Of a stretch of 64,000 bases of DNA, positions 45,601-61,800 are shown one piece after another (position 1 is the stretch's first letter; the number at the start of each line of letters is the position of its first letter). The DNA comes from the human T2T-CHM13v2.0 reference genome, Homo sapiens. The DNA lies in the NCBI RefSeq assembly GCF_009914755.1, contig NC_060927.1; one strand, given 5' to 3'. The notes below the pieces were generated by a model that was not told where the DNA came from, did not search any database, and saw nothing but the letters and a program-made list of their open reading frames with translations. Both the position numbers and the translations under genes were made by a program.

Positions 45601-46451
45601 TATGTTGTGTCTTTGTTCTCATTGGTTTCAAAGAACATCTTTATTTCTGCCTTCATTTCATTATATACCCAGTAGTCATTCAGGAGCATGTTGTTCAGTT
45701 TCCATGTTGTTGAGTGGTTTTGAGTGAGCTTCTTAATCCTGAGTTCTAGTTTGATTGCACTGTGGTCTGAGAGACAGTTTGTTATAATTTCTGTTCTTTT
45801 ACATTTGCTGAGGAGTGCTTTACTTCCAACTATGTGGTCAATTTTGGAATAAGTGTGATGTAGTGCTGAGAAGAATGTATATTCTGTTGATTTGGGGTGG
45901 AGAGCTCTGTAGATGTCTATTAGGTCCGCTTGGTGTAGAGCTGAGTTCAATTCCTGGATATCCTTGTTCACCTTCTGTCTCATTGATCTGTCTAATGTTG
46001 ACAGTGGGGTGTTAAAGTCTCCTATTATTATTGTGTGGGAGTCTAAGTCTCTTTGTATGTCTCTAAGGACTTGCTTTATGAATCTGGATGCTCCTGTATT
46101 GGGTGCATATATATTTAGGATAGTTAGCTCTTGTTGTTGAATTGATCCCTTTACCATTATGTAATGGTCTTCTTTGTCTCTTTTGATCTTTGTTGGTTTA
46201 AAGTCTGTTTTATCAGAGACTAGGATTGCAACCCCTGCTTCTTTTTGTTTTCCATTTGTTTGATAGATCTTCCTCTATCCCTTTATTTTGAGCCTATGTG
46301 TGTCTCTGCACGTGAGATGGGTTTCCTGAATACAGCACACTGATTGGTCTTGACTCTTTAACCAATTTGCCAGTCTGTGTCTTTTAATTGGAGCATTTAG
46401 CCCATTTACATTTAAGGTTAATATTGTTATGTGTGAATTTGATCCTGTCAT
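42628..46451 (-). pseudogene. L1-A ORF2 (endonuclease/reverse transcriptase), fragmented
   Basis: ORF track fragments [40 protein letters not shown] separated by stops and frameshifts. Confidence 0.92.
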
Positions 46452-46514
46452 TATGATGTTAGCTGGTTATTTTACTTGTTAGTTGATTCAGTTTCTTCCT
46501 AGCATTGACGGTCT

Positions 46515-47537
46515 TTACAATTTGGCATGTTTTTGCAGTGGCGGGTACCAGTTGTTCCTTTCCATGTTTAATGCTTCCTGCGGGAGCTCTTTTAAGGCAG
46601 GCCTGGTGGTGACAAAATCTCTCAGCATTTGTTTGTCTGTAAAGGATTTTATTTCTGCTTCACTTATGAAGCTTAGTTTGGCTGGATATGAATTTCTGGG
46701 TTGAAAATTCTTTTCTTTAAGAATGTTGAATATTGGCCCCCACTTTCTTCTGGCTTGCAGAATTTCTGCCGAGACATCCGCTGTTAGTCTGATGGGCTTC
46801 CCTTTGTGGGTAACCGTACCTTTCTCTCTGGCTGCCCTTAACATTTTTTCGTTCATTTTAACTTTGGTGAATCTGACAATTATGTGTCTTGGAGTTGCTC
46901 TTCTCGAGGTCTATCTTTGTGGTGTTCTCTGTATTTTCTGAATTTGAATGTTGGCCTGCCTTGCAAGGTTGGGGAAGTTCTCCTGGATAATATCCTGCAG
47001 AGTGTTTTCCAACTTAGTTCCATTCTCCCTGTCACTTTCAGGTGCACCAATCAGATATAGATTTGGTCTTTTCACATAGTCACATATTTCTTGGAGGCTT
47101 TGTTAGTTTCTTTTTACTCTTTTTTCTCTAAACTTCTCCTCTCGCTTCATTTCATTAATTCGATCTTCCATCACTGATACCCTTTCTTCCACTTGATCAA
47201 ATTGGCTACTGAAGCTTATGCATGCATCATGTAGTTCTGTTGCCGTGGTTTTCAGCTCCATCAGGTCATTTAAGGTCTTCTCTACACTGTTTATTTAGTT
47301 AGCTGTTCGTCTAATCTTTTTTCAAGGTTTTTAGCTTCTTTGCAATGGGTTCGAACATACTCCTTTAGCTCAGAGAAGTTTGTTATTACCAATCATTTGA
47401 AGCCTTCTTCTCTGAATTCATCAGTCATTATCCATCCAGCTTTGTTCTGTTGCTGGTGAGGACCTGTGTTCCTTTGGAGGAGAAGAGGCACTCTGATTTT
47501 TAGAATTTTCAGCTTTTCTGCTCTGGTTTCTCCCCAT
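46515..47537 (-). pseudogene. L1-A ORF1, fragmented
   Basis: C-terminal fragment MLRAAREKG...PPLQKHAKL; upstream part interrupted. Confidence 0.9.
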
Positions 47538-57803: not shown

Positions 57804-58821
57804 ATGGGGAAGAAAACAGAGCAGAAAAACTGGAAACTCTAAAAATCAGAGCACCTCTCCTCCTCCAAAGGAACACAGCTCATCACCAGCAATGGAACAA
57901 AGCTGGATGGAGAACGACTTTGATGAGTTGAGAGAAGAAGGCTTCAGATGATCAAACTACTCTGAGCTAAAGGAGGAAGTTCGAACCCATGGCAAAGAAG
58001 TTAAAAACCTTGAAAAAGGATTAGACAAATGGCTAACTAGAATAACCGATGCAGAGAAGTCCTTAAAGGACCTGATGGAGCTGAAAACCACCGCATGAGA
58101 ACTATGTGATGAACACACAAGCCTCAGTAGCCAATTCGATCAACTGGAAGAAAGGGTATCAGTGATGGAAGATCAAATGAATGAACTGAAGCGAGAAGAG
58201 AAGTTTAGAGAGAAAAGAATAAAAAGAAACTAACAAAGTCTCCAAGAAATATGGCACTATGTGAAAAGACCACAACTACATCTGACTGGTGTACCTGAAA
58301 GTGACAGGGAGAATGGAACTAAGTTGGAAAACACTCTGCAGGATATTATCCAGGAGAACTTCCCCAATCTAGCAAGGCAGGCCAACATTCAAATTCAGGA
58401 AATACAGAGAATGCCACAAAGATACTCCTCGAGAAGAGCAACTCCAAGACACATAATTTTCAGATTCACCAAAGTTGAAATGAAGGAAAAAATGTTAAGG
58501 GCAGCCAGAGAGAAAGGTTGGGTTACCCACAAAGGGAAGCCCATCAGACTATCAGCTGATCTCTCAGCAGAAACTCTGCAAGCCAGAAGAGAGTGGGGTC
58601 CAATATTCAACATTCTTAAAGAAAAGAATTTTCAAGCCAGAATTCCATGTCCAGCCAAATGAAGCTTCATAAGTGAAGGAGAAATAAAATACTTTACAGA
58701 CAAGCAAATGCTGAGAGATTTTGTCACCACTAGGCTTCCCCTACAAGAGCTCCTGAAGGAAGCACTAAACATGGAAAGGAACAACTGGCACCCACCACTG
58801 CAAAAACATGCCAAATTGTAA
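57804..58821 (+). pseudogene. L1-C ORF1, fragmented
   Basis: ATG at 57804; fragments GVPESDRENGTKLENTLQDIIQENFPNL and ...QKHAKL stop; internal stops. Confidence 0.9.
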
Positions 58822-58884
58822 AGACCGTCAATGCTAGGAAGAAACTGCATCAACTAATGAGCAAAATAACCAGCTAACATCATA

Positions 58885-61800
58885 ATGACAGGATCAAATT
58901 CACACATAACAATATTAACCTTAAATGTAAATGGGCTAAATGCTCCAATTAAAAGACACAGACTGGCAAATTGGTTAAAGAGTCAAGACCAATCAGTGTG
59001 CTGTATTCAGGAAACCCATCTCACGTGCAGAGACACACATAGGCTCAAAATAAAGGGATAGAGGAAGATCTATCAAACAAATGGAAAACAAAAAGAAGCA
59101 GGGGTTGCAATCCTAGTCTCTGATAAAACAGACTTTAAACCAACAAAGATCAAAAGAGACAAAGAAGATCATTACATAATGGTAAAGGGATCAATTCAAC
59201 AACAAGAGCTAACTATCCTAAATATATATGCACCCAATACAGGAGCATCCAGATTCATAAAGCAAGTCCTTAGAGACATACAAAGAGACTTAGACTCCCA
59301 CACAATAATAATAGGAGACTTTAACACCCCACTGTCAACATTAGACAGATCAACCAGACAGAAAGTTAACAAGGATATCCAGGAATTGAACTCAGCTCTG
59401 CCCCAAGCAGACCTGATAGACATCTGCAGAACTCTCCACCCCAAATCAACAGAATATACAGTCTTCTCAGCACCACACCACACCTATTCCAAAATTGATC
59501 ACATAGTTGGAAGTAAAGCACTCCTCAGCAAATGTAAAAGAACAGAAATTATAACAAACTGTCTCTCAGACCACAGTGCAATCAAACTAGAAATCAGGAT
59601 TAAGAAACTCACTCAAAACCACTCAACTACATGGAAACTAAACAACCTGCTCCTGAATGACTACTGGGTGTATAATGAAATGAAGGCAGAAATAAAGATG
59701 TTCTTTGAAACCAATGAGAACAAAGACACAACATACCAGAATCTCTGGGACATATTCAAAGCAGTGTGTACAGGGAAATTTATAGCACTAAATGCCCACA
59801 AGAGAAAGCAGGAAAGATCCAAAATTGACACCCTAACATCACAATTAAAAGAACTAGAAAAGCAAGAGCAAACACATTCAAAAGCTAGCAGAAGGCAAGA
59901 AATAACTAAGATCAGAGTAGAACTGAAAGAAATAGAGACATAAAAATCCCTTCAAAAAATCAGTGAATGCAGGAGCTGGTTTTTTGAAAGGATCAACAAA
60001 ATTGATAGACTGCTAGCAAGACTAATAAGGAAGAAAAGAGAGAATAATCAAATAGACGCAATAAAAAATGGTAAAGGGGATATCACCACCAATCCCACAG
60101 AAATACAAACTACCATAAGAGAATACTATAAACACCTCTACGCAAATAAACTAGAAAATCTAGAAGAAATGGATAAATTCCTCGACACATACACCCTCCC
60201 AAGACTAAACCAGGAAGAAGTTGAATCTCTGAATAGACCAATAACAGGCTCTGAAATTGAGGCAATAATTAATAGCTTACCAATCAAAAAGAGTCCAGGA
60301 CCAGATGGATTCACAGCTGGATTCTACCAAAGGTACAAGGAGGAGCTGGTACCATTCCTTCTGAAACTATTCCAATCAATATAAAAAGAAGGAATCCTCC
60401 CTAACTCATTTTATGAGGCCAGCATCATCCTGATACCAAAGCCTGGCAGAGATACAACAAAAAAAGAGAATTTTAGACCAATATCCCTGATGAACATCGA
60501 TGCAAAAATCCTCAATAAGATACTGGCAAACCGAATCCAGCAGCACAGGAAAAACTTATCCACCATGATCAAGTGGGCTTCATCCCTGGGATGCAAGGCT
60601 GGTTCAATATACACAAATCAATAAATGTAATCCAGCATATAAACAGAACCTATGACAAAAACTATATGATTATCTCAATAGATGCAGAAAAGGCCTTTGA
60701 CAAAATTCAACAACCCTTCATGCTAAAAACTCTCAATAAATTAGGTATTGATGGGACATATCTCAAAATAATTAGAGCTATCTATGACAAACCCACAGCC
60801 AGTATCATACTGACTGGGCAAAAACTGGAAGCATTCCCTTTGAAAACTGGCACAAGACAGGGATGCCCTCTCTCACCACTCCTATTCAACATAGTGTTGG
60901 AAGTTCTGCCCAGGGCAATCAGTCAGGAGAAGGAAATAAAGGGTATTCAATTAGGAAAAGAGGAAGTCAAATTGTCCCTGTTTGCAGATGACATGATTGT
61001 TTATCTAGAAAACCCCATTGTCTCAGCCCAAAATCTCCTTAAGCTGATAAGCAACTTCAGCAAAGTCTCAGGATACAAAATCAATGTGTAAAAATCACAA
61101 GCATTCTTATACACCAATAACAGACAAACAGAGAGCCAAATCATGAGTGAACTCCCATTCACAATTGCTTCAAAGAGAATAAAATACCTAGGAATCCAAT
61201 TTACAAGGTATGTGAAGGACCTCCTTAAGGAGAACTAGAAACCACTGCTCAATGAAATAAAAGAGGATACAAAGAAATGGAAGAACATTCCATGCTCATG
61301 GGTAGGAAGAATCAATATCATGAAAATGACCATACTGCCCAAGGTAATTATAGATTCAATGCCATCCCCATCAAGCTACCAATGACTTTTTTCACAGAAT
61401 TGGAAAAAACTGCTTTAAAGTTCATATGGAACCAAAAAAGAGCCTGCATTGCCAAGTCAATCCTAAGCCAAAAGAAGAAAGCTGGAGGCATCACGCTACC
61501 TGACTTCAAACTATACTGCAAGGCTACTGTAACCAAAACAGCATGGTACTGATACCAAAACAGAGATATAGACCAGTGGAACAGAATAGAGCCCTCAGAA
61601 ATAATGCCGCATATCTACAGCTATCTGATCTTTGACAAACTTGACAAAAAGAAGAAATGGGGAAAGGATTCCCTATTTAATAAATGGTGCTGGGAAAACT
61701 GGCTAGCCATATGTAGAAAGCTAAAACTGGATCCCTTCCTTACACCTTAGACAAAAATTAATTCAAGATGGATTAAAGACTTAAATGTTAGACCTAAACC

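What the first reader, a model, noticed from the sequence alone, without database searches (positions are those of the whole stretch)
45983..59353. 491-bp gene-conversion tract between two inverted full-length L1s
Seen: 45983-46473 (rc) and 58863-59353 match at 490/491 positions by manual comparison (only 46167/59169 differ). The adjacent ~135 bp has about 14 mismatches, and the two 5'UTRs differ visibly (L1PA5-like vs L1PA4-like). The tract includes shared residues that depart from the L1 consensus as I recall it (QQQELT, GASRF, RDIQ, TIIIGD). A second patch shares WVYNE and AVCTG. Inference: recent ectopic gene conversion through fold-back pairing of the inverted elements, covering the ORF2 start and endonuclease region.
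Basis: partly seen in the sequence, partly recalled or inferred. Interest (0 to 1): 0.78.

Follow-up and report, generated by a model that had tools for sequence, protein, structure and literature searches.

The report
Copied patch between neighbouring L1 repeats
Two broken, head-to-head LINE-1 jumping-gene copies that differ at about 8% of their positions share one 491-base stretch with a single difference, most likely because DNA repair copied it from one into the other, which is a clean example of an already known process.

Summary
The tract is real: 490/491 identical inside two ~6.1-kb L1s that differ at 7.7% of columns; 0 of 20,000 permutations reach it. It is not a sub-lineage: 73 other L1s differ from it at 16-49 sites, two tract motifs match exactly only at these two loci genome-wide, and the elements fall in different clades in the flanks but join with support 1.0 in the tract. 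Both elements keep matching target-site duplications, so there is no net inversion: most likely non-crossover, non-allelic gene conversion, probably after the human-chimp split (P 0.02 against older, recalled rate). Donor unresolved. The tract carries a shared ORF2 stop, so no coding consequence. Extra: L1-A has a ~1.2-kb 3' transduction whose source on chr3 holds no L1. Conversion between L1s is in print; I did not find this locus in four catalogues. No reads or ape genomes were available. Ordinary: interest 0.25.

The parts
45983..46473 (-). Homogenised tract in L1-A (22 nt before the ORF2 ATG at 46451 to ORF2 codon 156)
58863..59353 (+). Homogenised tract in L1-C (ORF2 ATG at 58885; shared in-frame stop at 59059-59061; the single difference at 59169 is the minority allele in C)
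42403..48548 (-). L1-A, full-length, broken ORFs; ORF1 and endonuclease domains by Pfam
48549..48561 (-). 5' target-site duplication of L1-A, in an older L1 3' end (family recalled), preceded by TT
41100..41112 (-). 3' target-site duplication of L1-A (12 of 13 match), after which the older L1 3' end continues
41113..42345 (-). 3' transduction carried by L1-A: unique sequence 93% identical to G000:C3:135579797-135581011, ending in AATAAA and a short A run
42346..42402 (-). A-rich linker holding a short piece that looks like an Alu 3' end (recalled), between the L1-A tail and the transduced sequence
56789..62931 (+). L1-C, full-length, broken ORFs; ORF1, endonuclease and RT domains by Pfam
56752..56766 (+). 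5' target-site duplication of L1-C (15 nt), followed by ~21 extra nt before the L1 head
62924..62938 (+). 3' target-site duplication of L1-C (15 of 15 match)
50490..53272 (-). L1-B in the spacer: ~650 nt of 5'UTR joined at 52593-52598 to the last ~2.06 kb, with its own 13-nt target-site duplication; lacks the tract region

Best explanation
Two independently inserted, head-to-head L1 copies share a 491-base stretch with one difference, most likely because a DNA break in one was repaired by copying the matching part of its neighbour without a crossover (non-allelic gene conversion), probably after the human-chimpanzee split. Shown: identity, sharp edges, sharing of rare alleles found together nowhere else, different lineages in the flanks, intact target-site duplications. 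Inferred: break repair by strand invasion into the inverted copy 12.4 kb away (same chromatid, sister or homologue cannot be told apart), non-crossover resolution, the age. Unresolved: which copy was the donor; the tract may be a mosaic of both.
For: 490/491 against 7.7% background, 0 of 20,000 permutations. Best other genomic matches 96% among 40 scored of 3,473 candidates; 73 panel L1s differ from the tract at 16-49 sites, so A and C are not both merely near a family norm. 7 shared alleles with at most 2 other carriers; 0 of 2,628 panel pairs reach that (mean 0.06, max 2.1). A 30-mer with four tract alleles matches exactly at these 2 loci only; a 76-mer matches exactly at these 2 of 468 places within 2 mismatches. 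Flank diagnostics: A carries 6 of 6 alleles of one group, C 0 of 6, on both sides of the tract; flank tree separates them (clades with support 0.90 and 0.86; patristic 0.125), tract tree joins them (1.0; 0.0025). Target-site duplications of A, B and C all match, the test Lee et al. use for inversion (PMC2603318, passages). Length is of the order of the 250-bp mean in Harpak et al. (10.1101/135152, abstract).
Against: Counting only alleles with no other carrier at all, the tract has just 1, which 44 of 2,628 panel pairs reach. Unrelated near-typical copies can be as close as 3 of 491 here and share runs up to 289 nt. The flanks are 6-11% divergent, above the ~4.5% range modelled for continued conversion in Harpak et al. 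(section 7). No reads, second human genome or ape orthologue were seen. The donor sites conflict: 59097 is A-type, 59013 is C-type.
Confidence: 0.85

Rival explanations
1. The tract is the footprint of an inversion: a crossover between A and C with an associated conversion tract, later re-inverted inside the identical stretch, or copied by allelic conversion from an inverted haplotype.
For: Inverted L1 pairs mediate inversions, with conversion at the breakpoints (PMC5829575 Fig. 4H passage; PMC9675761 passages; HsInv0341 with L1PA3 in PMC3961182). Geometry fits a 12.4-13.4 kb inversion.
Against: Target-site duplications intact and no reciprocal swap of flank diagnostics. No coordinate beginning 3407-3409 in the T2T inversion table of PMC10150506, none 3407-3410 in 4 of 5 supplement files of PMC9675761, and none of the 4 chr3 rows of PMC2603318 lies here.
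Confidence: 0.08
2. Assembly or polishing artefact: one copy's bases were overwritten by reads of the other.
For: Not testable here; a single reference was seen.
Against: The tract is 491 nt inside 6-11% divergent flanks, far shorter than long accurate reads (own knowledge), one difference persists, and reads of a 6%-divergent copy would not map better than the native ones (inference).
Confidence: 0.03
3. RNA- or cDNA-templated overwriting: a transcript of one copy was reverse-transcribed in trans and used to repair the other.
For: The tract begins 22 nt before the ORF2 start; both elements keep 5'UTRs.
Against: A diffusible template would not single out the neighbour among thousands of copies (7,122 copies match one ORF2 22-mer); no poly(A) or junction scar at the tract edges.
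Confidence: 0.03
4. Shared descent or chance: both copies come from a rare L1 lineage, or the run is a statistical fluctuation.
For: 6 further alleles outside the tract are shared by A and C and absent from the panel.
Against: Different flank clades; no third copy of the tract motifs; shared descent would still leave ~30 differences in 491 at the ORF2 rate (P about 2e-12).
Confidence: 0.01

Closest known systems
Conversion between L1PA3 elements and L1PA7-flanked inversion with conversion (Frith and Khan, PMC5829575, Figs 4S and 4H; passages seen)
   Same: A tract of one L1 replaced by the matching tract of a nearby L1 in human DNA.
   Different: There seen as read-versus-reference polymorphism; here inside the reference, between copies of two lineages, without an inversion. 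No 34-Mb row among the 30 of 34 chr3 places of its supplement that I saw.
Non-allelic conversion among neighbouring Alu and other transposable elements (review by Fawcett and Innan, PMC6598467; passages seen)
   Same: Mosaic diagnostic alleles and tree incongruence; rate reported to rise for copies within about 10 kb.
   Different: L1 instead of Alu; a longer tract; tract-to-tract distance 12.4 kb, heads 8.2 kb apart.
Non-allelic gene conversion in human duplicates (Harpak et al., 10.1101/135152; abstract and section 7 seen)
   Same: Tract of a few hundred bases (their mean 250 bp).
   Different: Partners here are 6-11% divergent retrotransposon copies, not young gene duplicates.
Retrotransposon recombination-mediated inversions (Lee et al., PMC2603318; passages and supplement chr3 rows seen)
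   Same: Oppositely oriented L1 pair as substrate.
   Different: Those have chimeric elements and mismatched target-site duplications; these are intact.

Membership tests
Non-allelic gene conversion tract | Bounded stretch of near-identity between diverged paralogues beyond chance | tested here: met
   490/491; 0 of 20,000 permutations
Non-allelic gene conversion tract | Shared derived alleles and tree incongruence between tract and flanks | tested here: met
Non-allelic gene conversion tract | Non-reciprocal transfer with an identifiable donor | tested here: inconclusive
   Homogenised, not swapped, but the two informative sites disagree; log-ratio 2.2 overlaps both calibration groups
Non-allelic gene conversion tract | Outgroup orthologue shows the pre-conversion state | not testable with these tools
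   No ape or second human genome held; the source site of A's transduction has no L1 to serve as a parent
Non-allelic gene conversion tract | Confirmed in raw reads or an independent assembly | not testable with these tools
   No reads offered
L1 recombination-mediated inversion | Chimeric elements with mismatched target-site duplications | tested here: not met
   Duplications of A (12/13) and C (15/15) match; diagnostics 6/6 versus 0/6 on both sides
Full-length primate LINE-1 | ~6 kb, 5'UTR, ORF1, ORF2 with endonuclease and RT, A-rich tail, target-site duplication | tested here: met
   Pfam PF02994, PF17490, PF03372 in both; PF00078 scanned in C only
L1PA5 (A) and L1PA4 (C) subfamilies | Diagnostic alleles against Dfam/Repbase models | not testable with these tools
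   Labels are recalled; only two different lineages are shown
L1 3' transduction | Unique sequence between the L1 tail and the 3' duplication, with its own poly(A) signal and a source elsewhere | tested here: met

The most novel reading that the evidence does not exclude
This 6-11% divergent L1 pair has exchanged sequence repeatedly (six further pair-private alleles outside the tract) and in both directions (mosaic tract), and the resulting 491-base near-perfect island now seeds an uncatalogued, recurrent ~12.4-kb inversion polymorphism that flips the annotated enhancer at 52859-53358: conversion re-arming old retrotransposons for rearrangement.
Probability: 0.08. Interest if true: 0.55.

Novelty: new member of a known kind. 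Interest (0 to 1): 0.25.

Why it matters
Little on its own: intergenic, no gene in the window, both L1s dead. It is a clean worked example that conversion still acts between L1 copies 6-11% apart, that it can distort L1 subfamily calls and ages locally, and that it creates a short unmappable or inversion-prone island. It suggests a cheap genome-wide scan of neighbouring L1 pairs in T2T human and ape assemblies for rate versus distance, orientation and divergence.

Tried and rejected
Net inversion: rejected on target-site duplications and flank diagnostics. A at first seemed to lack a duplication; it lies 1.3 kb downstream behind a transduction. Using A's parent element as an outgroup: failed, no L1 adjoins the source site within the 6.7 kb fetched (only a 186-nt L1 3' piece ~5.9 kb away). 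Donor by diagnostic sites, naive-Bayes ratio, private load (tract 2.3-2.5%, A flank 3.2%, C flank 2.5%) and tree placement: inconclusive; a first attempt that kept CpG sites was uninformative. Second patch 59671-59819: not significant; its 59771 allele is in 131 of 7,122 copies. Conversion involving L1-B: none seen, longest runs 123 (B/C) and 91 (B/A). A recalled PRDM9-type 13-mer: no match in 40000-64000. L1-B as a spliced element: the junction has a few untemplated bases and no splice-like ends. The panel does not cover L1 positions beyond about 61,100, so the 129-nt run at 61724-61852 was not tested for shared rare alleles. Panel: 74 loci after dropping 4 duplicates and the self and transduction loci; chosen by similarity to A, C or the tract, so not a random sample. 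Supplements: one PDF of PMC9675761 could not be read; 4 of 34 chr3 places in PMC5829575 were not seen.

Full report
Observation. The reverse complement of 45983-46473 and 58863-59353 differ at 1 of 491 positions, 46167/59169. They lie in two oppositely oriented ~6.1-kb L1s, A (42403-48548, minus) and C (56789-62931, plus), head to head with 8.2 kb between the heads and 12.4 kb between the tracts. Pfam finds ORF1 and endonuclease domains in both and RT in the one C frame scanned. The full alignment has 468 differences in 6,111 columns; the edges are sharp (14 of 143 on the left, 14 of 136 on the right) and 0 of 20,000 permutations give a comparable run. The tract runs from 22 nt before the ORF2 start to codon 156 and includes a stop at codon 59 in both copies.

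Not a sub-lineage. The best other genomic matches are 96% identical (40 scored of 3,473 candidates). I built a panel of 74 other L1 loci from hits to A, C and the tract (4 duplicates and the self and transduction loci dropped); the 73 that cover most of the tract differ from it at 16-49 sites. A and C share 7 alleles with at most 2 other carriers, which 0 of 2,628 panel pairs reach; with the strict criterion of no other carrier there is 1, which 44 pairs reach. Genome-wide, a 30-mer with four tract alleles matches exactly only at A and C, and a 76-mer matches exactly only there among 468 places within 2 mismatches. In the flanks A carries 6 of 6 and C 0 of 6 alleles of one lineage; a tree of 66 sequences separates them on flanks and joins them with support 1.0 on the tract. 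A caution: typical copies can be as close as 3 of 491 here, but the tract is 16 or more steps from every panel copy, so that does not explain it.

No crossover. C has a perfect 15-nt target-site duplication. A's duplication (12 of 13) lies 1.3 kb past its tail, behind a 3' transduction from G000:C3:135,579,797-135,581,011, after which the older repeat it inserted into continues. Matching duplications are the criterion for the un-inverted state in Lee et al. (PMC2603318, passages). So the two insertions were independent and the arrangement is ancestral. The source site has no adjoining L1, so it cannot serve as an outgroup; its 5.8% distance from the transduced copy shows A is old compared with the tract's 0.2%.

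Mechanism, age, direction. Most likely a break in one copy was repaired from the other without crossover (inferred). Fold-back pairing is not shown; nothing here separates same-chromatid, sister or homologue templates. One difference in 491 has a 95% range of 0.005-1.1%; with a recalled human-chimp divergence of 1.2% the chance of at most one difference is 0.019, so the event is probably human-lineage, and could be polymorphic or private to this genome if the single difference is an unrepaired site. The donor is unresolved: 59097 has the allele of A's lineage (11 of 17 versus 4 of 42), 59013 the allele usual outside it (5 of 17 versus 39 of 42); one extra mutation in either donor, or a mosaic tract, explains this.

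Second patch. Six panel-absent alleles shared outside the tract exceed the panel null (mean 0.3, max 5.0 in 1,138 pairs), but four lie in runs of at most 19 nt. Older exchange is possible, not shown.

Comparison with what is known. Conversion between L1s and at L1-flanked inversions is described (PMC5829575, passages); conversion between nearby Alus and other elements is reviewed (PMC6598467, passages); mean human non-allelic tract length is 250 bp (10.1101/135152, abstract and section 7); L1-mediated inversions are catalogued (PMC9675761, PMC3961182, passages). I did not find this locus in the supplements of PMC5829575 (30 of 34 chr3 places seen), PMC10150506 (supplement searches only), PMC9675761 (4 of 5 files) or PMC2603318 (all 4 chr3 rows); nine full-text searches on the process listed no paper on it, but none was a search by locus name. 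A pangenome L1 preprint mentions recombinant detection (10.64898/2026.05.14.725010, passages); its files were not seen.

Verdict. Real, most likely a non-crossover non-allelic gene-conversion tract (0.85), a new member of a known kind with no coding consequence. What stays open is the donor, the date, the population status and read-level confirmation. Interest 0.25; the bold reading, repeated two-way exchange seeding a recurrent 12.4-kb inversion, has probability about 0.08 and would deserve 0.55.

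Noticed in passing
window 41113-42345 (-); G000:C3:135579797-135581011 (L062, L063): L1-A carries a ~1.2-kb 3' transduction (K2P 5.8% from its source). Homology at the source starts exactly at a TT/AAGA site and no L1 adjoins it, so the parent element is likely unfixed or precisely lost.
   Followed up: yes
window 42346-42402 (-): A short Alu-3'-end-like piece (recalled) between two A runs precedes the transduced sequence, suggesting an earlier round of transduction by a grandparent element.
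   Followed up: no
window 50490-53272 (-): L1-B is internally deleted (5'UTR joined to the last ~2.06 kb with a few untemplated bases) yet has a matching target-site duplication; the annotated enhancer 52859-53358 overlaps its 5'UTR.
   Followed up: partly
window 57614, 58231, 58578, 58793, 59671, 59771 (C coordinates): Six alleles outside the tract are shared by A and C and absent from the panel (null mean 0.3, max 5.0 in 1,138 pairs), but four of them sit in identical runs of at most 19 nt: older exchange or recurrent mutation, unexplained.
   Followed up: partly
window 39200-39410 and 39944-40153: Local inverted repeat, 211-nt arms 88% identical, ~530-nt spacer; the arms found no other match among 40 scored candidates, the spacer matches an old dispersed repeat. 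Likely an old inverted duplication.
   Followed up: partly
window 56767-56788: About 21 extra bases between L1-C's target-site duplication and the L1 head, with no second copy in the window.
   Followed up: partly
L026 (G000:C2:238335284-238339183): Shares 17 rare alleles with L1-A, 14 of them between 57503 and 58144: A's closest lineage relative in the panel.
   Followed up: partly
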